This document shows, piece after piece, positions 1-62,421 of a stretch of 64,000 bases of DNA. The first letter of the stretch is position 1. Each line of letters starts with the position of its first letter. A program made the position numbers and the translations under genes. Location: IMG/VR virus record IMGVR_UViG_3300042114_000252. One strand, written 5' to 3'. Under the pieces are notes generated by a model, which was given only the letters and a program-made list of their open reading frames with translations, was not told where the DNA came from and made no database searches. This DNA comes from a virus.

Positions 1-316
1 CTTATTTTTTACAGAAATAAATCCCTTTACACAACCAACAAACTCTCCATTTAAAAATCTTTCATCTGTTTTTGAAACGCTATAAGTTTTTCCTTCTTTA
101 TCTTTTACAGAAACTATTCCATTTGCTACATGAACCAATTCCCCATTTAAATATCTTTCATCTGTTTTTGAAACACTAAAAGTTTTTCCTTCTTTATCTT
201 TTACAGGAACAAATCCCTTTGAAAAAGCTACCAATTCACCATTTAAAAATCTTTCATCTGTTTTTGAAACACTATAAATATTCCCAGCTTTATCTTTTAC
301 AGTAATAAATCCCTTT
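1..316 (-). repeat. Coding tandem repeat, 96-bp unit, at least 3.3 copies (KGFITVKDKAGNIYSVSKTDERFLNGELVAFS-like)
   Basis: The 'ttttacag' anchor recurs with acag at 11, 107, 203 and 299, a period of 96. Confidence 0.95.
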
Positions 317-606
317 AAATGATCCCATCCACCCTCACCTCCTATTTTTAAATTATAAGTGTCTTTTCTTAAAACAAATTCTTCATTAACTAAATCACGT
401 TCTAAATCTAACATTTCTTTTTTATTATCAAATATAGAAATTATTTCTTTTTTAAAATTATTTAATCCATATTTATTTTGGGACATTTTTAGATATTTCC
501 CTGACCCCATATAATTATCTTCTAAATCATATGTTTCATGAATTCCAATATATATTTTATTATTAATTTGATTTGTTATTTTATAAACACAATAAAAAAC
601 TTCCAT
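1..606 (-). CDS. GIY-YIG (Seg-like) homing endonuclease with C-terminal 32-aa tandem repeats; 3' end lies outside the window
   Basis: Not in the ORF track; translated by hand from ATG at 606 with AAGGA upstream: MEVFYCVYKITNQINNKIYIGIHETYDLEDNYMGSGKYL... has the VY-x-IYIG and YMGSG motifs. Frame stays open to position 1. Confidence 0.85.
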   Translation of the reverse strand, partial: MEVFYCVYKITNQINNKIYIGIHETYDLEDNYMGSGKYLKMSQNKYGLNNFKKEIISIFDNKKEMLDLERDLVNEEFVLRKDTYNLKIGGEGGWDHLKGFITVKDKAGNIYSVSKTDERFLNGELVAFSKGFVPVKDKEGKTFSVSKTDERYLNGELVHVANGIVSVKDKEGKTYSVSKTDERFLNGEFVGCVKGFISVKNK

Positions 607-720
607 CCTTTATTTTTTTCCTTTTATTTTTTTTACCATTATAATTATGATAAATTATCTAAAATATAGAATAACATTTTTTCGCTTAAAATAAACTTAA
701 TCAATAACTTTTTTATTTTA

Positions 721-792
721 AACACAAAATAGGACTTGAACCTACAATCTTCTGATTTGCAATCAGATGCTTTACCATTTAGCTATTTGTGC
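721..792 (-). tRNA. tRNA-Cys(GCA), no encoded CCA
   Basis: Cloverleaf; anticodon arm TCTGA-TTGCAAA-TCAGA; U discriminator. Confidence 0.93.
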
Positions 793-810
793 ATCTTATT
801 TTTTTTTGTA

Positions 811-896
811 TGTCTGAAGTGAGACTCGAACTCACACTCATTATATTCAGAACTAGTGCCTAAAACTAGCGGGTCTACCATTTTCCCCATTCAGAC
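811..896 (-). tRNA. tRNA-Leu(TAG), long variable arm, no encoded CCA
   Basis: Anticodon arm CTAGT-TTTAGGC-ACTAG; T arm GTGAG-TTCGAGT-CTCAC. Confidence 0.93.
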
Positions 897-922
897 TTAT
901 TTCTTATATATACATTATTTTT

Positions 923-997
923 TGGTATCATTAGTAAGATTCGAACTTACATAAAACTCGTTAGAAGCAAGTTGCCTATCCATTAGACTATAATGAC
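923..997 (-). tRNA. tRNA-Arg(TCT)
   Basis: Anticodon arm ACTTG-CTTCTAA-CGAGT; ends ACCA. Confidence 0.92.
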
Positions 998-1009
998 ACA
1001 TATTAAAAT

Positions 1010-1084
1010 TGGAGCTCAATAACAGAATCGAACTGTTTTCTCTTGGTTACAAAACAAGTGCTTCACCTACAAAGCTTATCAAGC
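1010..1084 (-). tRNA. tRNA-Thr(TGT)
   Basis: Loop TTTGTAA; acceptor GCTTGAT/ATTGAGC; ends TCCA. Confidence 0.88.
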
Positions 1085-1098
1085 ATTTTTTGTTTTTT

Positions 1099-1172
1099 TG
1101 GATGGGCTAAGAGGACTCGAACCCCTATTCTTAGATCCAAATTCTAATGTCCTACCTTTAGACGACAACCCA
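1099..1172 (-). tRNA. tRNA-Gln(TTG)
   Basis: Anticodon arm TTAGA-ATTTGGA-TCTAA; ends TCCA. Confidence 0.92.
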
Positions 1173-1192
1173 TTATTTTCTTTTCTACTTTT

Positions 1193-1266
1193 TGGCAAAC
1201 CATGTAGGAATCAAACCCACTCGACAAGGATTTGGAATCCCGCCCGATATCATATCTGCATGGAAT
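1193..1266 (-). tRNA. tRNA-Trp(CCA), atypical (two acceptor-stem mismatches, short D loop)
   Basis: Loop TTCCAAA; T arm GTGGG-TTTGATT-CCTAC; ends GCCA. Confidence 0.7.
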
Positions 1267-1285
1267 ATATATTTTATATATTTAA

Positions 1286-1359
1286 TGGAGCGAACACTGG
1301 GACTCGAACCCAGTTAATTAGTTTGGAAGACTAACGCACAACCTATATGCCATGTTCGC
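1286..1359 (-). tRNA. tRNA-Gly(TCC)
   Basis: Anticodon arm TTAGT-CTTCCAA-ACTAA; ends TCCA. Confidence 0.94.
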
Positions 1360-1417
1360 ACTTATTAGTTATATATATACATATATATAACATTATTTTT
1401 TGTTTTTTATTACAATT

Positions 1418-1499
1418 GAGGGAAGAAAGTTTAAAAAGTTATATTTTGATTTTTTAAAGCCGCCCTCTTTTTACTAAGAAGGCAAACTCTTTTGAAAGA
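1418..1499 (-). promoter_or_regulatory. Conserved structured leader element, copy B (candidate attenuator)
   Basis: Near-identical to 2813..2893. Hairpin GCCTTCTT/AAGAGGGC competes with GAGGG/CCCTC pairing. Confidence 0.6.
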
Positions 1500-1637
1500 T
1501 TACCTGGTTAGTATTTTTGAACCGCCCTGTCTATACTGTGTTTTCGTTCCACAATTTAGACAAGATAAATTCCATAAAGATATAGTATATGTATTATTAA
1601 CATTAACTGTGTTTTGTATTTTTGAATTACTTAACAT
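1500..1637 (-). CDS. 45-aa small ORF, candidate leader peptide B (MLSNSKIQNTVNVNNTYTISLWNLSCLNCGTKTQYRQGGSKILTR)
   Basis: Translated by hand. RBS/start AAGGATATAAAAATGTT is identical to copy A; ends AGG TAA. Confidence 0.65.
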   Translation of the reverse strand: MLSNSKIQNTVNVNNTYTISLWNLSCLNCGTKTQYRQGGSKILTR

Positions 1638-1806
1638 TTTTATATCCTTATTTTTTTTTATTTTGTTTTAGAATTATAACTAAAAAATAAAATAATTAAA
1701 AAAAAAATAATATTTTTAAAAAATATTTAAAAATTAATACAATTTATTTATTTTATTTTAAGAAAACTATTCTTATTTATATTTTTCTAATCTTCTACAT
1801 TTTATT

Positions 1807-1883
1807 TGGTATGCTTGGGAGGATTTGAACCTACAACTTCTTTTGTCGAAACAAAGCACTCTATCCAGTTGAGTTACAAACAT
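1807..1883 (-). tRNA. tRNA-Arg(TCG)
   Basis: Loop TTTCGAC; acceptor ATGTTTG/CAAGCAT; ends ACCA. Confidence 0.9.
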
Positions 1884-1903
1884 AAAATTATTTATCTTAC
1901 TTA

Positions 1904-1979
1904 TGGTCTGAACTAAGGGATTTGAACCCTTTACCTTAGCGCCCCAAACGCCACATGCAACCAACTACACCTAATTCAG
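1904..1979 (-). tRNA. tRNA-Pro(TGG)
   Basis: Anticodon arm TGGCG-TTTGGGG-CGCTA; ends ACCA. Confidence 0.93.
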
Positions 1980-1999
1980 TTATTAATTTTTATATATTA

Positions 2000-2075
2000 T
2001 GGTATGTGTTGTAAGATTTGAACTTACTACCTCTACCTTGTAAGAGTAGCGCTCTACCTATTGAGCTAAACACAC
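2000..2075 (-). tRNA. tRNA-Val(TAC)
   Basis: Anticodon arm CTACT-CTTACAA-GGTAG; ends ACCA. Confidence 0.94.
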
Positions 2076-2085
2076 TTCTTTTTTT

Positions 2086-2162
2086 TGGGTTGACTGATGA
2101 AACTTGAATTCACAACATCTGGTGCCACAAACCAGCGCCTCTACCATTGGGCTACAGCCAAC
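2086..2162 (-). tRNA. tRNA-His(GTG) with encoded G-1
   Basis: Anticodon arm CTGGT-TTGTGGC-ACCAG; G-1:C73; ends CCCA. Confidence 0.92.
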
Positions 2163-2191
2163 ATACATTTATATATAATTTTTTCATCTTT

Positions 2192-2262
2192 TGGTACCAA
2201 ATACTTGAATTGAACAAGTCTAACCATACTTATGAGGCACGGGTGTCACCTTGACATTTGGC
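2192..2262 (-). tRNA. tRNA with CAT anticodon (elongator Met or Ile2), shortened D region
   Basis: Anticodon arm CGTGC-CTCATAA-GTATG; acceptor GCCAAAT/ATTTGGT; ends ACCA; 71 nt in total. Confidence 0.75.
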
Positions 2263-2281
2263 TTTTTTATCTTTATATTTT

Positions 2282-2366
2282 TGGCGGAAGATCTGAGAAT
2301 CGAACTCAGCAATGTTTAACCACCCAAGGTTTAGCAAACCTCTTATGCACCTTGCATGCATCTTCC
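2282..2366 (-). tRNA. tRNA-Ser(GCT)
   Basis: Anticodon arm GAGGT-TTGCTAA-ACCTT; long variable arm; ends GCCA. Confidence 0.9.
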
Positions 2367-2368
2367 AA

Positions 2369-2444
2369 TGGTGCCAACTGGAAGAGTTGAACTTCCGACA
2401 CAAGGATTTTCAATCCTTTGCTCTACCTCCTGAGCTAAGTTGGC
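2369..2444 (-). tRNA. tRNA-Phe(GAA)
   Basis: Anticodon arm AAGGA-TTGAAAA-TCCTT; ends ACCA. Confidence 0.95.
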
Positions 2445-2467
2445 ATATATAATTTTCTTCTTTTACA

Positions 2468-2553
2468 TGGCGGAGGAGGAGAGACTCGAACTCTCAATAG
2501 TTTTACCTACGGCAGTTTTCAAGACTGCTGCCTTACCATTAGACTACTCATCC
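2468..2553 (-). tRNA. tRNA-Ser(TGA)
   Basis: Anticodon arm GCAGT-CTTGAAA-ACTGC; long variable arm; ends GCCA. Confidence 0.95.
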
Positions 2554-2570
2554 TTATTTATCAAACTTTT

Positions 2571-2646
2571 TGGTACTTCCAAAGGAATTCGAATCCTTGT
2601 GTCCTCCTGGAAAGGGAGGCATCCTAAACCACTAGATGATGGAAGC
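2571..2646 (-). tRNA. tRNA-Glu(TTC)
   Basis: Anticodon arm CCTCC-CTTTCCA-GGAGG; ends ACCA. Confidence 0.92.
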
Positions 2647-2678
2647 TTCTTTTTCTTTTATCTAAATTCTTTATATTT

Positions 2679-2754
2679 TGGTGGAGTATATCAGATTTGA
2701 ACTGATAACCTTTTGGTTGCAAACCAAATGCTCTACCAATTGAGCTAATACCCC
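2679..2754 (-). tRNA. tRNA-Ala(TGC)
   Basis: Anticodon arm TTTGG-TTTGCAA-CCAAA; G3:U70 identity pair; ends ACCA. Confidence 0.95.
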
Positions 2755-2812
2755 AATATATAAACTATACATATAAAATAATATATATTAAACACATTAT
2801 GTTTTATTTTAA

Positions 2813-2893
2813 GAGGGAAGAAAGTTTAAAAAGTTATATTTTTATTTTTTAAAGCTGCCCTCTTTTCTAAGAAGGCGAACTTTTTTTGAAAGT
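2813..2893 (-). promoter_or_regulatory. Conserved structured leader element, copy A (candidate attenuator)
   Basis: Near-identical to 1418..1499 and directly follows the AGG TAA of the small ORF. Confidence 0.6.
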
Positions 2894-3031
2894 TTACCTA
2901 ATTAGAAGTTTAGAAACATCTCTACTTTGCTCCGACTTATCACTCGGATGCATAATAGAATCAGACATAAAAATGGCTTCTGTATTTTTTACAGATTTAA
3001 CATTAAAAATTGATTTATTAAAATTAAACAT
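2894..3031 (-). CDS. 45-aa small ORF, candidate leader peptide A (MFNFNKSIFNVKSVKNTEAIFMSDSIMHPSDKSEQSRDVSKLLIR)
   Basis: Translated by hand. Same length, RBS/start and terminal AGG TAA as 1500..1637. Confidence 0.65.
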   Translation of the reverse strand: MFNFNKSIFNVKSVKNTEAIFMSDSIMHPSDKSEQSRDVSKLLIR

Positions 3032-3167
3032 TTTTATATCCTTTATATTTTTTTATTTATTATTATATTTTGTTTTTTTATTGTAATAAAAAATATTTTA
3101 TTGAAAAAAATTAGTTTTTTTAAAAAAAACCAATAAACTAACATAGTTTTATTTTTTATGTATTGGC

Positions 3168-3196
3168 ATTATATATAAAAAATAAAATAATGTCAA
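3168..3196 (-). promoter_or_regulatory. Consensus sigma70 promoter TTGACA-N17-TATAAT driving leader A and the tRNA array
   Basis: -35 at 3191..3196, -10 at 3168..3173, 17-nt spacer. Confidence 0.8.
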
Positions 3197-3300
3197 GAAA
3201 AAAATAAAAAAATAAAAAATTTTGATAAACTAATTTTATTTTTTTATTTTAATTTAAGAAACAACTTCTCTTTTTGATTCTATATATATAATATTATAAG

Positions 3301-4953
3301 TTATTCTACAGTTAAATATCCACCACAAGAAGGGCATGTATTATAGTTTATTCTATTATAAACCTTTCCACAATCATTGCATTCAACAAATGTATCATCA
3401 TTATTTTCTTTTTTTACAAAACAATCTTCAATATCTTTTAACATTTTATCTGCTTCTTCATTATCTACATCTCTAACAGTTTGTTCTTTTTCAGTAGATA
3501 CATTTTCTTCTTTTTTTTCTTTATTAATATCTTCTTTTGAACTATCAAAACTTTCATTAAATCTTTTTGTTGTTTTATTTATAAAATCCATAACAGCATT
3601 AGAATTAGAAGTAGTGAAAATATTTTTAATTTCATAACCTTCTTTTAAATATGGATCTAAAAAAGTTTTTATTTCTTTATCTTCTAAAACACTTTTTATA
3701 TTTTTTTCGATTTTTTCAAATTCTTTTTTTATTTCTTCTTTATTAATTGGATTTAATATTTTAGGAAATTTATAATCTTTAAACATTTCATCTATATAAT
3801 CATACTTATCTTTTTTCACTGATTCATTAGTTTGTTCTTTTTCAGTAGATACATTTTCTTCTTTTTTTTTATTAGTATAATTAGTATTTAAAAAACTTTC
3901 CACATTATCTACATATTGATAAGTTGAAGAAGTATCTTCTTTTTTTATTTCTTCTTTTTCATCAACTTTTTTATTAGATTGTTCCTTTTCTTTTTTAGAA
4001 GCCATTTTTTCTTTAAATTGCTTTTCTAAATCATCTATAATTTCTTTTCCTCTTTTTTCAAACCCTTCTACATTACCAAAAATCTTAGAAGCATTTTCTT
4101 TTAAAAATTCAAATCCTTTTTTTATTTCTTCTTCACTATCTTTATCTGAAAAAACTAAACAACCTCCTAATCCTTTAAAAAGAGGAATATTGTCAGAAAA
4201 GTCTGTTGATATATTATTTACAAATCCTTTCCCTAATTCTATACTTTCATTTAGAATATCAAAACTAGTTTTTTCTTTTTCAGTAGATACATTTTCTTCT
4301 TTTTTATCAGTCGATTGTTCTTTTTTTACTTTTGATTTTTCTAATTCTTCACACAAATCTTTTGAAATATTATTTACAAAAAATTTTCCTAATTCTATAC
4401 CATCATTTATGATATCACATAATGTTTTTTCTTTTTTTTCTTCTTTTTTATTAGTTTCTTGTTTTTGTTTGTTTGAGGCTTTTTCTTTTTTATCTATTTC
4501 TTCAAATAATTCTTTGATAAATTCTTCTTCATCAAAATCTTCTTCCTTATTACACATACAATTACAAGAATAACATTCATCATTATTTTCTTCATAATCT
4601 TCATTAAAATAATCTTCTGTTTTTACTAAATTACAATTTTTAACCCATTTTTTTATTTCTTTTTTATTTGGTTCTACAAAATTAAAAACAGAAATTGGAT
4701 TAGATTCAATAACATCTTCAAGTTTTTTATTATTTTTTAGATCAACATATTCATTTAATTCTTCTTTATACTTTAATCCACAAACATAACTTTTAGACAC
4801 TTTAAAAATTGTATCTTTATAATCTTCTTTATCCCAACTATATTGGTCTTTTAATGCCTTAATTAAAACAATTAACACATTTTTTGCTTTCTTTTTTTCT
4901 TTTTCACACAATTCTTGAAAATCTTCTCCAAATACTATTACTTTATTTTCCAT
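3301..4953 (-). CDS. Hypothetical Lys/Glu-rich protein with internal repeats (KKEENVSTEKEQT) and a C-terminal zinc ribbon (CNDC...CPSC)
   Basis: ORF track, 550 aa; RBS AGGA. Confidence 0.75.
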   Translation of the reverse strand: MENKVIVFGEDFQELCEKEKKKAKNVLIVLIKALKDQYSWDKEDYKDTIFKVSKSYVCGLKYKEELNEYVDLKNNKKLEDVIESNPISVFNFVEPNKKEIKKWVKNCNLVKTEDYFNEDYEENNDECYSCNCMCNKEEDFDEEEFIKELFEEIDKKEKASNKQKQETNKKEEKKEKTLCDIINDGIELGKFFVNNISKDLCEELEKSKVKKEQSTDKKEENVSTEKEKTSFDILNESIELGKGFVNNISTDFSDNIPLFKGLGGCLVFSDKDSEEEIKKGFEFLKENASKIFGNVEGFEKRGKEIIDDLEKQFKEKMASKKEKEQSNKKVDEKEEIKKEDTSSTYQYVDNVESFLNTNYTNKKKEENVSTEKEQTNESVKKDKYDYIDEMFKDYKFPKILNPINKEEIKKEFEKIEKNIKSVLEDKEIKTFLDPYLKEGYEIKNIFTTSNSNAVMDFINKTTKRFNESFDSSKEDINKEKKEENVSTEKEQTVRDVDNEEADKMLKDIEDCFVKKENNDDTFVECNDCGKVYNRINYNTCPSCGGYLTVE

Positions 4954-5040
4954 TCTTTATTTCCTACCTTTTATATTTTTATATTTTAATAATACAATTA
5001 TATCTAAATAAAACTAAAAAGAAAATTAAAAAAAGTTTTT

Positions 5041-5895
5041 TTATTTTTTTTGATTTTTTGTTTTTTTTACACTAGTTTCTTTTATTTCTTTTTCTTGATT
5101 GAAAACTATCATATCTTCAAAAAAATCTTTTTTAAAATAATCTTTTACTCTTACACTCATATCTTCTATTACATCAGAATCATCATATTCATCAAAAATA
5201 TGTCTACCACTTGATGAACACAAAAAATTATTAACTAAAACATTATAAATATCTTTTGAAGAATCAAATACAACACCTTCTTCTTTTAATTTTTTAATAG
5301 CTTCTAAGTATTCTTTTTCAACTTCTTTATCAGTTTCAAAAGTTCTTAAATTACTTCCAATATAACCAAAAGGAGATGATCCTATATATTTCTGTAGCAC
5401 TTCATTCTTAAATAAATCATTTGAAAAACCACCTTGATATTCTTCTATAATTATATCTTTATGATTATATTTTACAAGTACACGATTTTTATCTTTTTGT
5501 TTTTGTTCATATTTTTCTATATAATATTCTTCTGCTTCTTCATTTACTTTTGCAATATCAATATCTTTACTATCTTTCAATCCATTTACATTTTTTTCAA
5601 TTTTTAATATTATATTTTCAATTTCTATATCAGAACGATCTTTTCTAGGATAAAAAAATTCAGTTTTTGTTGGAATACTTATATAATATACATCTATTGT
5701 TTTTGTATAACCTTTCGTAAAATTCTCTTTTTTTTCTAATCCATTTATTTCACAAACTTTAGAAACTTCAGTTATATCTTTTTTTAATTCTTCTAAATTA
5801 TCATATAATTTATATCTATCTACATCTTTTGGAGAAAAAGTATTATAAGAACCTTTTTTTACTGTAATATCAAGAATATATTTATTTTTTGCCAT
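5041..5895 (-). CDS. Hypothetical protein sharing a YQGGFS...PFGYI domain with 28024..29376
   Basis: ORF track, 284 aa; paralogous segment seen by eye. Confidence 0.8.
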   Translation of the reverse strand: MAKNKYILDITVKKGSYNTFSPKDVDRYKLYDNLEELKKDITEVSKVCEINGLEKKENFTKGYTKTIDVYYISIPTKTEFFYPRKDRSDIEIENIILKIEKNVNGLKDSKDIDIAKVNEEAEEYYIEKYEQKQKDKNRVLVKYNHKDIIIEEYQGGFSNDLFKNEVLQKYIGSSPFGYIGSNLRTFETDKEVEKEYLEAIKKLKEEGVVFDSSKDIYNVLVNNFLCSSSGRHIFDEYDDSDVIEDMSVRVKDYFKKDFFEDMIVFNQEKEIKETSVKKTKNQKK

Positions 5896-6115
5896 TTTTT
5901 ATTTACCTCTTCTTTTTTTATTTTATATTATTTATTATATATAATTTTTAATATTTATTTCATTTTTTAATTAAATTTACCATATTCTAACTATTTTAAT
6001 ACTTTTATAATTAATTTTTGTGAAACTCCCATTTTAATGACACTATATCTTACTTAAATGACTTTAATTAACAAATTATTTTTAACTTACACTAAGTTAT
6101 TCTTCTATATATACA

Positions 6116-51183: not shown

Positions 51184-51726
51184 ATGACAAAAATATTACA
51201 AAAAATATTAAACTTGTTTTATATAAATAAACAAAATAATGAAATAAATGAAGATTCGTTAGATAAAGAATTTTTATTTCATTTTCTTTTTCTCTTTGGA
51301 GATGCTATTCATAATATTAAAGATTTTGGATATATGTATTCAAATATCAAAGAGGAAGATAGGGATTTTGAAAAAATTGGAAAATTATTCTTTCAAAATA
51401 ATAATGCTAAAATTATTTCTATAGTAGGACAAATATTAAGATCTATATCATCTACAGGATATAATCATCATTCTGTAAAAAACCTTTTAAAAAAAGAATA
51501 TAAAGAATTGTTAAATTATGAAAACCTTAAAAAAACTTATAGAAATCAAAATTATATAATAAATGAAACTAAAACTTTTTCTTTCATTGAAAAAGCTAAT
51601 CTTTTAGCATTAATTGATATAACAATGAAAGCAGCAAATGGACATAAAATAAATGAAATAGAATTAGATTTTTTATCTGAAATATTTGAAGTTCCAAAAG
51701 AAAAACTTTTTACACAAAATATATAA
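51184..51726 (+). CDS. Hypothetical protein
   Basis: ORF track, 180 aa; RBS AAGGA. Confidence 0.7.
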   Translation: MTKILQKILNLFYINKQNNEINEDSLDKEFLFHFLFLFGDAIHNIKDFGYMYSNIKEEDRDFEKIGKLFFQNNNAKIISIVGQILRSISSTGYNHHSVKNLLKKEYKELLNYENLKKTYRNQNYIINETKTFSFIEKANLLALIDITMKAANGHKINEIELDFLSEIFEVPKEKLFTQNI

Positions 51727-60183: not shown

Positions 60184-62421
60184 TCAAAACATAACAATCC
60201 TAATATTCCCACTATCATAAATTCTTCTAAAACCTATATTATATAAATTATAAGTTTTACTAATATTATCATTATATTCATAATTTAAATTAACATTTTT
60301 ATTATTTCTATATTTTAAATATTCTTTTTTATTTTGTTTTAATTCATTAACTATATTAATAATTTTGTTCTTATTATTTAATTCTTCTTTTTGATATATT
60401 TTGTGAATATTATTATTTAAAATATATAAATAATTTGGTTTGGTTTTAAATGCTATAACATTAGTTTCATTATTATCTACTTCATTATTAATTAACATTA
60501 AATCATTAAAACTATCAATCAATGAAAACTTATTCCATCTTCTATTAGCATAATAAGTTATTTTTTCTACATTTTGTGTGGAAAATAATATATTATTTAT
60601 ATCAGTATTATTTGTTTTTAAATAATTAAACAAATATTTAATTACTTTATAATTATTTAATTTTGAATCAATTTGAAAATCTTGTTCTATAAAATCTATT
60701 GAATTACATATATCTACAATAGTAAATTCTTTTTGTTGGAAGTTTGAGACATTGTTAACTACAAAACCTAAAAAACCATATATTAAACTTATTAAATTAC
60801 TAGTTTTTTTATCATATAAACCAAAAAATACTACATTATTTTCTTTATGTTTTAAAAATAAATTATTAAAACTATATTCATTGTATTCCAAAGAATTATT
60901 TTCTAAAAAAGTAATGATTATTTCTTTATTTTTTTGAATATTATTGTAGTCTATTTCTTTTATATATATATTTTCATTATATTCATAACTTAAATTAACA
61001 TTTTCATTATTTTTATTATTTAGTTCTTTTAATTTAATAGAAATATTTTGTTTTAATATATTTAACCATATTTTTTTCTTTTGTTGATTTAGCCACTCAT
61101 CTTCATTAATTTGAAATAAACTAATCCCTTTTTCTTCACATAAATTAGTTTTAATTTGATGCAAATATTTTTCTTTTGCTTCTTTTTCAAAATTATTAAA
61201 AATAGAACGCTTATGTTTTCCAAATGAATGATACAACAAACCATTATATTCTATAGCTATATTAAGCTTAGGAATATAAATATCTAATTCTTTTCTTACA
61301 TTTTGTAAAGCTTTTCTATCATTAATTAAAACTTCTTCTTTAGCTAAATCAAGAGGAAACATTTTTAATATTTCTTTTTGTAATTCCTTTTCCATATTTC
61401 CAAAACTGTCTAATTGTATTCCTTCAAATGCTTTTTTGTTATTTTTTAAATAAGTGTTTAAAGATGTTATATTTATATTAAAAAATAATAAAACCTTTTT
61501 TTTATCTAATTTTTTTTTTCCTCTATTGATATATACAAAATTATTTATTATATATTCTACATTAAATAATTCTATATTTAATATATGTTTTTGAGTCGGA
61601 CTTTTACAACCATATCTTTTTAAACTAGTATTTATTGCTCTTTCTCTTATTTCTTTATTTTGTAAAGTATATTCTTTTCCATAATTTTCTAAACAAGTAA
61701 CCTTTCGTTTTTCTTTCACTTCTTCATTTTGTAGAGCATATTCATTTCCATATCTTTCTAAACATGTTTTTTTTGATTTATTCCTTACTTCTTTATTTTG
61801 TAGAACATATTCATTTCCATATTTTTCTAAACATGTCTTTTTTGATTTCTTTTTTACTTCTTCATTTTGAGAAGCATATTCTACACCATATCTTTCCATT
61901 GTAGTTTTTTTTGCTTTATTTTTTATTTCTTCATTTTGAAATGGATTTTCACATCCATATTTTTTTAATGAAACATTCTTTATTTTTTCTTTTATTTCTT
62001 CATTTTGAAATGGATTTTCACATCCATATTTTTCTAAACATGTTTGTTTTATTTTTTCTTTAAATTCTTCTTTTTGAAATGGATTTTCACAACCATGACG
62101 TTCTAAACAAGTTTTTTTGATTTTTTCATACCTACACTTATTTGAACAAGTTGAAGAATATAATATTCTATTAAATTTAGTTGGGTTTAAATTACATATT
62201 TCACACATATTTCTTTTTGTAATATTATTATTTAAACAATAATACCTTTCTTCATTTGATATTGTATTATCATTAGGAAGAAAACTAGTAAAGTGAAATA
62301 AAGATTCTTTGAGAATTATATCATTTTTTAGATATTGATTTATTTTTGAAGAAGACAAAAAACTTGTTTTAGTTAAACAATTTGTCTTTAAAAATTTAAG
62401 TAATTCTTCTTTTGAAAGCAT
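60184..62421 (-). CDS. Putative homing endonuclease (Hef/Vsr-like nuclease domain) with eight 23-aa TCLEKYG repeats
   Basis: Repeats TCLEKYGCENPFQNEEIKEKIKN; nuclease motif ELDIYIPKLNIAIEYNGLLYH...QINEDEW. Confidence 0.75.
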   Translation of the reverse strand: MLSKEELLKFLKTNCLTKTSFLSSSKINQYLKNDIILKESLFHFTSFLPNDNTISNEERYYCLNNNITKRNMCEICNLNPTKFNRILYSSTCSNKCRYEKIKKTCLERHGCENPFQKEEFKEKIKQTCLEKYGCENPFQNEEIKEKIKNVSLKKYGCENPFQNEEIKNKAKKTTMERYGVEYASQNEEVKKKSKKTCLEKYGNEYVLQNKEVRNKSKKTCLERYGNEYALQNEEVKEKRKVTCLENYGKEYTLQNKEIRERAINTSLKRYGCKSPTQKHILNIELFNVEYIINNFVYINRGKKKLDKKKVLLFFNINITSLNTYLKNNKKAFEGIQLDSFGNMEKELQKEILKMFPLDLAKEEVLINDRKALQNVRKELDIYIPKLNIAIEYNGLLYHSFGKHKRSIFNNFEKEAKEKYLHQIKTNLCEEKGISLFQINEDEWLNQQKKKIWLNILKQNISIKLKELNNKNNENVNLSYEYNENIYIKEIDYNNIQKNKEIIITFLENNSLEYNEYSFNNLFLKHKENNVVFFGLYDKKTSNLISLIYGFLGFVVNNVSNFQQKEFTIVDICNSIDFIEQDFQIDSKLNNYKVIKYLFNYLKTNNTDINNILFSTQNVEKITYYANRRWNKFSLIDSFNDLMLINNEVDNNETNVIAFKTKPNYLYILNNNIHKIYQKEELNNKNKIINIVNELKQNKKEYLKYRNNKNVNLNYEYNDNISKTYNLYNIGFRRIYDSGNIRIVMF

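What the first reader, a model, noticed from the sequence alone, without database searches (positions are those of the whole stretch)
1418..3196. Duplicated leader-peptide + RNA-switch cassette heading each tRNA array
Seen: both tRNA arrays are preceded on the - strand by the same cassette. It starts with an identical 17-mer RBS/start (AAGGATATAAAAATGTT). A 45-codon ORF follows (2894..3031 and 1500..1637); the two interiors have diverged, but both are exactly 138 nt and end SK[IL]L[TI]R with AGG-TAA. Next comes an ~82-nt element that is nearly identical in the two copies. It can fold GCCTTCTT/AAGAGGGC, or, mutually exclusively, GAGGG/CCCTC with an inner TTTAAAAA/TTTTTAAA stem. A perfect TTGACA-N17-TATAAT promoter sits upstream of copy A. 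Established: leader-peptide attenuators use ribosome position near the leader stop codon to choose between competing folds, and some bacterial tRNA arrays (e.g. the cyanobacterial trn operon) are induced by translational stress. Inference: a ribosome-sensing switch turns on the element's backup tRNA supply when translation is impaired or an Arg codon or release step stalls. I know of no described leader-peptide control of mobile-element tRNA arrays. Neither ORF is in the ORF track. No strong U-tract follows either fold on the sense strand, so any termination may be Rho-dependent.
Basis: partly seen in the sequence, partly recalled or inferred. Interest (0 to 1): 0.85.

Follow-up and report, generated by a model that had tools for sequence, protein, structure and literature searches.

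The report
Codon-matched leader genes before tRNA arrays
Each of the two tRNA gene clusters on this very AT-rich mobile element sits behind a 45-codon mini-gene written mostly in the codons that its own cluster's tRNAs read, joined to a conserved three-hairpin RNA switch. It therefore looks like a ribosome-operated sensor of tRNA supply, a control I could not find described for tRNA genes.

Summary
Both tRNA arrays on the - strand are headed by the same cassette: an identical SD/ATG 17-mer, a 45-codon ORF, and a 3' block of about 105 nt that is 93% identical between copies.

- The block forms three overlapping hairpins. HP1 encloses the AGG-UAA stop.
- Each leader is enriched in codons read by its own array. 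Leader A has 22 own and 6 other codons; leader B has 19 own and 7 other (Fisher p=1.6e-4). The paired test against the window's real genes gives p about 1e-4, and there is no signal in the other five frames. Leader B samples all 7 tRNA species of array B. Leader A samples 9 of 10 of array A.

I found the same design, with canonical terminators, in public phage phiCbK. This scan has noted it before on DNA of many other genomes. I found no paper describing it.

Weak points: no relatives of this cassette exist in any collection searched, so there is no covariation evidence. No hairpin is followed by a U-tract, so the output step and its sign are inferred.

Verdict: probably a translation-sensing leader for tRNA arrays, a new variant of leader-peptide attenuation.

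The parts
3168..3196 (-). Consensus sigma-70-type promoter TTGACA-N17-TATAAT upstream of cassette A
   Evidence: Matches 12 of 12, the only perfect site in 600-3400.
3104..3133 (-). A/U-only hairpin followed by U7, between the consensus promoter and leader A. It resembles this element's ordinary terminators.
   Evidence: Fold. It aligns with a like element in copy B. Ordinary gene ends here use A/U hairpins plus U-runs.
3027..3043 (-). SD plus start 17-mer AAGGATATAAAAATGTT of leader A
   Evidence: One of two exact copies in the window. The SD type and spacing are the same as in most genes of the window.
2894..3031 (-). Leader ORF A: 45 codons plus TAA, MFNFNKSIFNVKSVKNTEAIFMSDSIMHPSDKSEQSRDVSKLLIR
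   Evidence: Of the 44 codons after the start, 22 are read by array A tRNAs and 6 by array B tRNAs. It covers 9 of 10 array A tRNA species.
2865..2907 (-). HP1 of copy A. The 5' arm is the last ORF codons plus AGG-UAA; the 3' arm is GCCUUCUUAGAA.
   Evidence: RNAfold minimum-free-energy structure.
2851..2883 (-). Middle hairpin of copy A. The core is GCCUUCUU/AAGAGGGC at 2876-2857. It extends to AAAGUU/AGCUUU when the ORF end is blocked. It excludes both HP1 and HP2.
   Evidence: Pattern hit. Constrained folds give -14.4 to -15.6 kcal/mol.
2813..2862 (-). HP2 of copy A: GAGGG...CCCUC with inner stem UUUAAAAA/UUUUUAAA. The 3' side is the pyrimidine tract CUUUCUUCCCUC.
1807..2754 (-). tRNA array A: Ala(UGC), Glu(UUC), Ser(UGA), Phe(GAA), Ser(GCU), Met(CAU), His(GUG), Val(UAC), Pro(UGG), Arg(UCG)
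   Evidence: ARAGORN. Rfam supports 8 of these 10; Met gets no hit and Ser(GCU) only a weak one.
1698..1728 (-). A/U-only hairpin followed by U10, between array A and cassette B. It is the likely terminator of unit A.
   Evidence: Fold; sequence.
1633..1649 (-). SD plus start 17-mer of leader B, identical to that of leader A
1500..1637 (-). Leader ORF B: 45 codons plus TAA, MLSNSKIQNTVNVNNTYTISLWNLSCLNCGTKTQYRQGGSKILTR
   Evidence: Of the 44 codons after the start, 19 are read by array B tRNAs and 7 by array A tRNAs. It covers 7 of 7 array B tRNA species.
1472..1513 (-). HP1 of copy B, enclosing AGG-UAA. The outer stem is UACUAA/UUAGUA, against UUCUAA/UUAGAA in copy A.
1462..1483 (-). Middle hairpin core of copy B: GCCUUCUU-AGUAAA-AAGAGGGC
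1418..1467 (-). HP2 of copy B
721..1359 (-). tRNA array B: Gly(UCC), a low-scoring tRNA-Trp(CCA)-like gene at 1266-1193, Gln(UUG), Thr(UGU), Arg(UCU), Leu(UAG), Cys(GCA)
   Evidence: ARAGORN. The Trp-like gene appears only at the 80% threshold and gets a weak Rfam hit.

Best explanation
Each cassette is a ribosome-operated sensor placed in front of a tRNA operon.

A short ORF with a normal SD and ATG is translated. Its 45 codons sample the tRNAs encoded directly downstream. The last four codons and the stop codon form the 5' arm of hairpin HP1.

If the ribosome is delayed inside the ORF because those tRNAs are scarce, HP1 forms. HP2 then also forms, so both arms of the middle hairpin are locked away. 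If the ribosome runs through to the stop codon, it melts HP1. The freed GCCUUCUU arm then pairs with AAGAGGGC as soon as that segment is made, and the pyrimidine tract CUUUCUUCCCUC is left single-stranded.

The two RNA states are proposed to set how much transcript reaches the tRNAs. The more likely logic is negative feedback: the hungry state (HP1 plus HP2) is permissive, and the sated state (middle hairpin) is restrictive. The restriction would work through weak hairpin-dependent or Rho-dependent termination at the exposed C/U-rich tract, or through a processing step.

Shown: the anatomy, the codon match, the open frames and the competing folds. Inferred: that the ORFs are translated, that the folds switch in vivo, and the nature and sign of the output.
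For: 1. Codon match. Leader A has 22 codons read by array A and 6 by array B. Leader B has 7 and 19 (one-sided Fisher p=1.6e-4).
- At the amino-acid level the counts are 23/4 against 8/20 (p=3e-5). All 14 discriminating amino acids go the concordant way. The real split of tRNAs between arrays is the single best of 3003 possible 8/6 partitions.
- A paired statistic against random 44-codon windows of the window's own genes gives p=1.1e-4.
- The result survives dropping Met, Trp and the conserved last six codons (p=1.5e-4). It is absent in the other two sense frames and all three antisense frames (p>=0.44).
- Leader B covers 7 of 7 array B species and 3 of 10 of array A (joint background frequency 2.6e-4). 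Leader A covers 9 of 10 and 4 of 7.

2. Signs of translation.
- The SD plus ATG is identical in both copies and of the type used by 30 of 42 genes here.
- Each frame is open in only about 1.4% of shuffles, and both are exactly 45 codons although their interiors are at chance identity.
- The ORFs have 26-28% G+C, against 7-10% in the flanking spacers.

3. Switch anatomy.
- The minimum-free-energy fold is HP1 plus HP2, with z = -6.1 and -3.0.
- Blocking the ORF end as a ribosome would gives the extended middle hairpin in both copies.
- The middle-hairpin bases are invariant. The few differences between copies fall in loops or keep pairing: U-A to U-G, A-U to G-U, and UUCUAA/UUAGAA to UACUAA/UUAGUA.
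- G-U pairs make the folds better on the - strand than on the + strand.

4. Precedent checked here. In phiCbK, two tRNA blocks are each preceded by a mini-ORF plus an annotated terminator. The two mini-ORFs match their own blocks (23/1 against 3/10, p=8e-6).
Against: - No hairpin is followed by a U-tract on the - strand, so the defining output element of classical attenuators is missing.
- Ordinary terminators of this element are A/U hairpins plus U-runs, and nothing like that follows the switch.
- No relatives of the cassette, the leaders or the neighbouring gene were found in any collection. There are only two paralogous copies and essentially no covariation.
- Only about half of each leader's codons are matched, less pure than in phiCbK.
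- I noticed the codon match by eye before testing it, which leaves some hindsight risk.
- The sign of regulation is ambiguous. A trp-like reading, with HP2 restrictive and the middle hairpin permissive, fits the geometry too.
- Promoter-like sites between the switch and the first tRNA cannot be excluded.
- Two of the array tRNAs, Met(CAU) and the Trp-like gene, are poorly supported.
Confidence: 0.55

Rival explanations
1. The ORFs are ordinary small protein genes, or are translated without any sensing role. The conserved 3' block is a structured 3' UTR that stabilises the small mRNA or marks an RNase processing site separating it from the tRNA precursor. The codon match is a coincidence.
For: - Small protein genes with repeated promoter and 5' UTR modules between tRNA sub-arrays are common in phages. 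L016 has five such repeats heading ordinary 60-90-aa proteins.
- There is no canonical terminator in the block.
- Two stable hairpins at the 3' end of a message are a usual stabiliser.
Against: - The codon match is specific to the reading frame and to the array, at p about 1e-4.
- The peptides have no homologues among 5.8 billion and 1.84 billion proteins. They share nothing with each other beyond their ends.
- The stop codon lies inside HP1. The invariant middle hairpin competes with both stabiliser hairpins, which a plain stabiliser does not need.
Confidence: 0.17
2. The block is a non-coding cis-acting RNA that works without translation. It could be a two-hairpin processive antitermination element in the manner of HK022 put, or a protein-binding or RNase III site that lets RNA polymerase cross, or lets enzymes process, long untranslated tRNA arrays. 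The ORFs are incidental.
For: - Two adjacent hairpins, HP1 and HP2, sit downstream of a promoter at the head of each untranslated operon. This placement is the same as for put sites (from my own knowledge).
- The block is far more conserved than the ORF interior.
Against: - Both frames stay open at exactly the same length despite saturated divergence, with a joint shuffle probability of about 2e-4.
- The SD/ATG is identical, and there is the codon match.
- Translation would run into HP1, which is odd for an element that must fold undisturbed.
- Rfam has no hit.
Confidence: 0.12
3. The hairpins are + strand or bidirectional terminators that stop antisense transcription. The rest of the similarity is a relic of a tandem duplication kept alike by gene conversion.
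For: On the + strand the middle hairpin is followed by T7 in copy A and T4 in copy B. HP2 is followed by T4-5.
Against: - No + strand gene lies upstream of either copy; only the antisense of the tRNA arrays does.
- Both G-U pairs of the middle hairpin become mismatches on the + strand.
- The + strand fold of copy B is not better than shuffles (z = -1.3).
- Gene conversion does not explain open, equal-length, codon-matched frames.
Confidence: 0.06
4. The real genes are the antisense + strand ORFs at 2886-3086 and 1492-1671. They would be small hydrophobic peptides, for example type I toxin-like, with the - strand transcript acting as their antisense RNA.
For: Both antisense frames are open across the leaders. 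The chance of this is 0.19 and 0.06 given codon-shuffled leaders. An SD-like AGAAGG lies about 10 nt before each TTG.
Against: - Both use TTG starts, in an element where 43 of 44 long ORFs start with ATG.
- A hydrophobic F/I/L composition is the automatic antisense of an A-rich strand.
- Each ORF starts right after a hairpin and a T-run.
- These frames show no codon signal.
Confidence: 0.03

Closest known systems
Multivalent leader-peptide transcription attenuators of amino-acid operons (ilvGMEDA leader: Ile/Val/Leu; thr leader: Thr/Ile; also trpL, hisL, leuL, pheL)
   Same: It has a short translated ORF with its own SD just upstream of the controlled genes. The ORF is enriched in several kinds of codons tied to the product being controlled. 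The ORF end overlaps the first of a set of mutually exclusive hairpins (1:2, 2:3, 3:4).
   Different: - The controlled genes are tRNAs, not enzymes, so the sensed molecules are the operon's own products.
- The matched codons are scattered over 45 codons rather than set in a tight run.
- The stop codon lies inside segment 1.
- No hairpin carries the U-tract of an intrinsic terminator.
pheST attenuator (pheM leader) of E. coli
   Same: It is leader-peptide control of a gene of the translation apparatus, read out through the supply of charged tRNA.
   Different: The target there is a synthetase, with a single amino acid and a canonical terminator.
tna operon leader TnaC (Rho-dependent attenuation)
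   Same: It offers a possible model for a leader ORF without an intrinsic terminator. There the position of the ribosome at the leader's stop codon decides whether Rho can load on adjacent RNA. Here a C/U-rich tract, CUUUCUUCCCUC, is either hidden or exposed.
   Different: TnaC senses free tryptophan through the nascent peptide. Nothing here shows peptide-specific arrest, a rut site or Rho involvement.
Mini-ORF plus terminator units before the tRNA blocks of Caulobacter phage phiCbK (NC_019405.1); noted by this scan in many phages, and I found no publication
   Same: Each tRNA block is preceded by a small ORF whose residues match that block's tRNAs. I checked this myself: 23/1 against 3/10, p=8e-6. 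One of the phiCbK ORFs is also 45 codons long.
   Different: - phiCbK has canonical G+C-rich terminators with U-tracts, annotated in the record.
- There is no sequence similarity to the present cassette.
- The present leaders are less purely matched.
T-box riboswitches
   Same: They sense tRNA status to control genes of the translation apparatus.
   Different: T-boxes bind uncharged tRNA directly and have no ORF. There is no Rfam T-box hit here at E<=1.

Membership tests
Leader-peptide (ribosome-mediated) transcription attenuator | A short ORF with a ribosome-binding site lies immediately upstream of, and co-oriented with, the regulated genes | tested here: met
   AAGGA-N7-ATG is identical in both copies and is the SD type of the element's genes. 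The ORFs have 45 codons and are open in about 1.4% of shuffles each. They end 140 nt before the first tRNA.
Leader-peptide (ribosome-mediated) transcription attenuator | The leader is enriched in codons whose decoding reports on the regulated product | tested here: met
   Own-array against other-array codons are 22/6 and 19/7, with p=1.6e-4. Only the ORF frame shows this. The test against background windows gives p=1.1e-4.
Leader-peptide (ribosome-mediated) transcription attenuator | Mutually exclusive RNA pairings exist, and one of them overlaps the leader ORF so that ribosome position selects the fold | tested here: met
   This is a prediction only. HP1 encloses the stop codon. The middle hairpin shares arms with HP1 and HP2. 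Blocking the ORF end switches the minimum-free-energy fold in both copies.
Leader-peptide (ribosome-mediated) transcription attenuator | One of the alternative folds is an intrinsic terminator: a hairpin followed directly by a U-tract | tested here: not met
   The tails are AGCUUUAAAAAA after the middle hairpin and UUAAAAUAAAA or AAUUGUAAUAA after HP2. The terminator scan finds none on the - strand in the cassettes.
Leader-peptide (ribosome-mediated) transcription attenuator | The ORF and the pairings are conserved across relatives, with compensatory changes | tested here: inconclusive
   No relatives were found anywhere. With two copies, 26 of 30 pairs never vary, 2 have one-sided changes that keep pairing, and 2 pairs each have one unpaired cell. 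One two-sided change in the outer HP1 stem depends on where a 2-nt indel is placed.
Rho-dependent leader attenuation (tna type) | A rut site next to the leader stop codon, and dependence on Rho | not testable with these tools
   Only a C/U-rich tract that HP2 can hide is seen. The host and its Rho are unknown.
T-box riboswitch | A specifier loop and the T-box sequence, recognised by Rfam RF00230 | tested here: not met
   There is no hit at E<=1 in 1-6000.
Processive antitermination RNA (HK022 put type) | A two-hairpin RNA acts in cis on RNA polymerase, independent of translation | not testable with these tools
   Two adjacent hairpins are present, but an ORF runs into the first. Whether Rfam holds a put-type model was not checked, and the Rfam search gave no relevant hit in the cassettes.

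The most novel reading that the evidence does not exclude
Mobile-element tRNA operons are autoregulated by 'test-reading'. Each array carries a leader ORF written in the codons of its own tRNAs, so the element measures the decoding capacity for exactly the tRNAs it can supply and adjusts their synthesis. In this element the switch works without an intrinsic terminator. Instead it uses a three-hairpin device in which two hairpins each sequester one arm of a central hairpin, with the output through Rho or RNA processing. The two paralogous cassettes have kept the switch nearly identical, while their leaders have been rewritten to follow the split of the tRNA set between arrays.
Probability: 0.45. 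Interest if true: 0.85.

Novelty: new variant of a known kind. Interest (0 to 1): 0.72.

Why it matters
tRNA genes are usually thought to be controlled at their promoters, through growth rate and the stringent response. Ribosome-mediated attenuation is known for amino-acid biosynthesis genes and a few synthetase genes. A leader ORF that samples the very tRNAs encoded behind it would be direct product feedback on tRNA supply.

It would also explain how phages and giant plasmids decide when to express their large tRNA sets. Possible triggers are codon-usage mismatch with the host, or tRNA depletion by host defence nucleases.

This locus is a clean natural experiment. It has one conserved switch and two leaders that diverged completely in sequence, yet each tracks its own array. 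It also shows the design can exist without a classical terminator. That widens what to look for in AT-rich genomes and makes a simple leader-swap test possible.

Tried and rejected
**Search for relatives**
- Blastn of the region against INPHARED phages and PLSDB plasmids matched only tRNAs.
- The hairpin pattern in IMG/VR gave one chance hit inside a coding region (L001).
- The same pattern in JGI metagenomes and GTDB genomes gave 12 hits, all G+C-rich chance terminators.
- Two tRNA-derived patterns in IMG/VR gave nothing.
- The neighbouring 550-aa protein has no relatives.
- Both leaders have no homologues.
- Exact-protein look-ups returned only identical short Logan contigs from one run, SRR35147462.

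**Reaching DNA left of the window.** I tried through the full-length GIY-YIG protein, to look for a third array. The protein is not on record.

**Covariance model R1.** It found no third copy in the window and no hit in 11 loci from phages carrying related GIY-YIG or DUF7487 genes. The records behind the IMG/VR loci are not held.

**Rfam.** It found no family besides tRNA: no T-box and no known leader.

**Giant-virus origin.** Some DUF7487 relatives sit on GVMAG-labelled contigs. I rejected this origin for the purpose of translation signals, because 30 of 42 genes have SD sites.

**L016 and L039 small ORFs between tRNAs.** These are ordinary small proteins behind repeated promoters, not codon-matched leaders.

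**Rare-codon use.** G/C-ending rare codons in the leaders show only weak enrichment, p=0.04-0.09, so I did not use this.

**Antisense ORFs.** I considered them and set them aside.

**Host taxon.** RecA is only 60-69% identical to any plasmid or phage-borne RecA.
Full report
**Context.** The window has about 20% G+C, and no whole genome is held for it. It lies on a 92.9-kb contig.
- The genes are almost all on the - strand. They include a bacterial-type RecA, a DnaJ, TnpB transposases, a C5 methylase, two 2,500-aa paralogues and many orphans.
- Genes use Shine-Dalgarno sites such as AAGGA, GGAG or AGGT about 7-10 nt before ATG. This holds for 30 of 42 genes, against 9% of random windows. So translation is of the bacterial type, and coupling of transcription and translation is plausible.
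- ARAGORN finds 16 tRNA genes, all at 721-2754 on the - strand. A 17th, a low-scoring tRNA-Trp(CCA)-like gene at 1266-1193, appears at a relaxed threshold.
- The tRNAs form two arrays separated by cassette B. A GIY-YIG homing endonuclease follows array B.

Aligning the 450 nt upstream of each array shows three kinds of sequence.
- An identical 17-mer holds the SD and ATG. It has two exact copies in 64 kb.
- The ORF interior is at chance identity, 36% observed against 29% expected from composition.
- A 3' block of 107 columns is 93% identical. It starts about 20 nt before the stop codon and ends at CCCTC.
- Both ORFs are 45 codons plus TAA. They end SKLLIR and SKILTR, with AGG-TAA.
- A covariance model of the block scores 123 and 120 bits on the two copies and at most 18 bits elsewhere in the window.
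- The perfect TTGACA-N17-TATAAT lies at 3196-3168.

**The fold is richer than described.** RNAfold of the - strand gives two adjacent hairpins in both copies, with z = -6.1 and -3.0 against dinucleotide shuffles.
- HP1 pairs the last ORF codons and the stop (UUCUAA..AGGUAA..) with GCCUUCUUAGAA.
- HP2 pairs GAGGG with CCCUC around an A/U inner stem.
The layout is therefore the classical 1:2 / 2:3 / 3:4.
- When I block the ORF end up to 13 nt past the stop, as a terminating ribosome would, the best fold in both copies becomes an extended middle hairpin, AAAGUUCGCCUUCUU / AAGAGGGCAGCUUU, at -12.8 to -14.4 kcal/mol.
- The middle-hairpin bases are invariant between copies.
- The few differences between copies lie in loops or keep pairing: U-A to U-G, A-U to G-U, A.C to A-U, and UUCUAA/UUAGAA to UACUAA/UUAGUA. 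One difference breaks a pair.
- With two sequences this is not covariation evidence.
- Two G-U pairs make the structures better on the - strand.

**Evidence that the frames matter.**
- Each ORF stays open in only 1.3-1.5% of shuffles of its own bases.
- Both keep exactly the same length although their interiors share no detectable similarity.
- Their G+C is 26-28%, against 7-10% in the spacers.
- The translation start region is the element's standard one.

**The new result: each leader matches its own array.** Array A encodes tRNAs for Ala, Glu, Ser (two), Phe, Met, His, Val, Pro and Arg(UCG). Array B encodes Gly, Trp-like, Gln, Thr, Arg(UCU), Leu(UAG) and Cys.

| | residues in the A set | residues in the B set |
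|---|---|---|
| Leader A | 23 | 4 |
| Leader B | 8 | 20 |

- Fisher's test on this table gives p=3e-5. All 14 discriminating amino acids go the concordant way. The real partition is the single best of 3003 possible 8/6 partitions.
- At the codon level the counts are 22/6 against 7/19 (p=1.6e-4). The other two sense frames and all three antisense frames show nothing (p>=0.44).
- Against random 44-codon windows of the window's own genes, the paired statistic has p=1.1e-4.
- Leader B covers all 7 species of array B but only 3 of 10 of array A, a pattern with background frequency 2.6e-4. Leader A covers 9 of 10 and 4 of 7.
- Dropping the doubtful Met and Trp-like tRNAs and the conserved last six codons leaves p=1.5e-4.
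- I saw the pattern by eye before testing it. However, it is the test that the attenuator hypothesis itself prescribes.

**Precedent.**
- After this test I consulted the scan's earlier notes. They hold many entries on codon-matched leader ORFs before phage tRNA arrays in other genomes, so the scan has found this design before on other DNA.
- I treated these notes as leads and checked one claim myself in the public record of Caulobacter phage phiCbK.
  - The annotated 45-aa gp335 and an annotated terminator precede tRNA-Pro, Pro, Lys, Lys, Leu x3 and Ser x2.
  - An unannotated 32-codon ORF (MSKTYRQFVRQIQVV...) and an annotated terminator precede tRNA-Phe, Val, Ile, Ile, Val, Gln and Gln.
  - The cross-match is 23/1 against 3/10, p=8e-6.
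- Five full-text searches found no paper on leader-peptide control of tRNA genes or arrays.

**Mechanism.**
- What is shown: an ORF with good translation signals, a codon match specific to the array, and three competing hairpins with the stop codon inside the first.
- What I infer: a ribosome delayed within the ORF lets HP1 and then HP2 form. A ribosome that reaches the stop melts HP1 and lets the middle hairpin form first, leaving CUUUCUUCCCUC unpaired.
- By analogy with phiCbK, the hungry state should be permissive and the sated state restrictive. In phiCbK an in-ORF segment competes with the terminator's 5' arm.
- The missing piece is the output. No hairpin has a U-tract. The element's ordinary gene ends are A/U hairpins with long U-runs. 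Such elements sit upstream of both leaders, not downstream.
- Candidate outputs are Rho loading on the exposed pyrimidine tract, weak hairpin-dependent termination in an all-A/U hybrid, or a processing or stability effect. None can be tested here.
- A trp-like reading with the opposite roles for the middle hairpin and HP2 also fits the geometry, so the sign is open.

**Rivals.**
- A small gene plus a 3' stabiliser or processing site.
- A translation-independent antitermination or processing RNA.
- + strand terminators plus gene conversion.
- Antisense small ORFs.

Each of these leaves the frame-specific, array-specific codon match unexplained. Most also leave the equal-length open frames unexplained.

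**No relatives.** The cassette, the leaders, the neighbouring 550-aa gene and two of the tRNAs have no relatives in INPHARED, PLSDB, IMG/VR, JGI metagenomes, GTDB genomes or the protein collections. The only other copies are identical short contigs from one sequencing run. Comparative tests therefore wait for more sequence, first of all the 29 kb of the contig outside the window. That stretch may hold a third array for the missing Asn, Lys, Ile, Asp, Tyr and Leu(UAA) tRNAs.

**Verdict.**
- It works like a leader-peptide attenuator.
- It should not be filed as a canonical member of that family, because the intrinsic terminator was looked for and is absent.
- Relative to published knowledge it is a new variant of a known kind.
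- Confidence that the ORFs are translated sensors that regulate the arrays is about 0.55. Confidence in the particular sign and output is much lower.

Noticed in passing
window 1-606 (-); L016 10001-10873; L039 7001-7873; L040 7001-8050; L042 7001-7777: The GIY-YIG (SegE-like) endonuclease just downstream of array B is 290 aa at full length and has three 96-nt internal repeats. Its relatives, 45-63% identical, also sit inside or beside tRNA genes on unrelated large phage contigs. One contig has 24 tRNAs plus RtcB, and another has 22 tRNAs. It looks like a homing endonuclease family that targets tRNA regions.
   Followed up: partly
window 1193-1266 (-): A degenerate tRNA-Trp(CCA)-like gene lies in the gap between tRNA-Gly and tRNA-Gln. 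It has two U.U mismatches in the acceptor stem. ARAGORN finds it only at the 80% threshold, and its only Rfam hit is a weak 16 bits to the tRNA-Sec model.
   Followed up: partly
window 2192-2262 and 2282-2366 (-): ARAGORN's tRNA-Met(CAU) has a reduced D-arm and a G1.U72 pair, and gets no Rfam tRNA hit at E<=1. Its identity as initiator, elongator or Ile2 is open. tRNA-Ser(GCU) gets only a weak tRNA-Sec hit.
   Followed up: no
window 721-2754: The 17 tRNAs cover 15 amino acids but none of Asn, Lys, Ile, Asp, Tyr or Leu(UUR). These are the codon families this element uses most (AAA 11.9%, AAT 9.4%, TTA 6.7%). Either the host supplies them or a further array lies on the 29 kb of the contig outside the window.
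   Followed up: partly
window 2886-3086 (+) and 1492-1671 (+): Antisense ORFs of 66 and 59 codons, with TTG starts and hydrophobic products, are open across both leaders. The chance of this is 0.19 and 0.06 given codon-shuffled leaders. It is probably a by-product but is not fully explained.
   Followed up: partly
window 3104-3133 (-) and 1698-1728 (-): Terminator-like A/U-only hairpins with U7 and U10 runs sit 75-95 nt upstream of both leader start codons. In copy A this one lies between the perfect consensus promoter and the leader, which is an odd place for a terminator.
   Followed up: partly
L016 8613-12732: Five copies of a promoter-plus-5'UTR repeat (TTGACA...GATATATT...CTTCTTAACGAAAGAGAG) are interspersed among the 24 tRNA genes of an unrelated phage contig. 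They head ordinary small protein genes or tRNAs directly.
   Followed up: partly
L038 (phiCbK NC_019405.1 47000-53000): phiCbK tRNA blocks are preceded by mini-ORFs matched to the block's amino acids and by annotated terminators. These are gp335 and an unannotated 32-codon ORF starting at record position 51341. The second ORF holds CCGGGCGGGCC, a near-copy of the terminator's 3' arm.
   Followed up: partly
window 60184-62421 (-): The DUF7487 protein next to RecA has relatives, 33-54% identical, on IMG/VR contigs of 23-38% G+C, some labelled as giant-virus MAGs. The window itself uses bacterial SD sites.
   Followed up: partly
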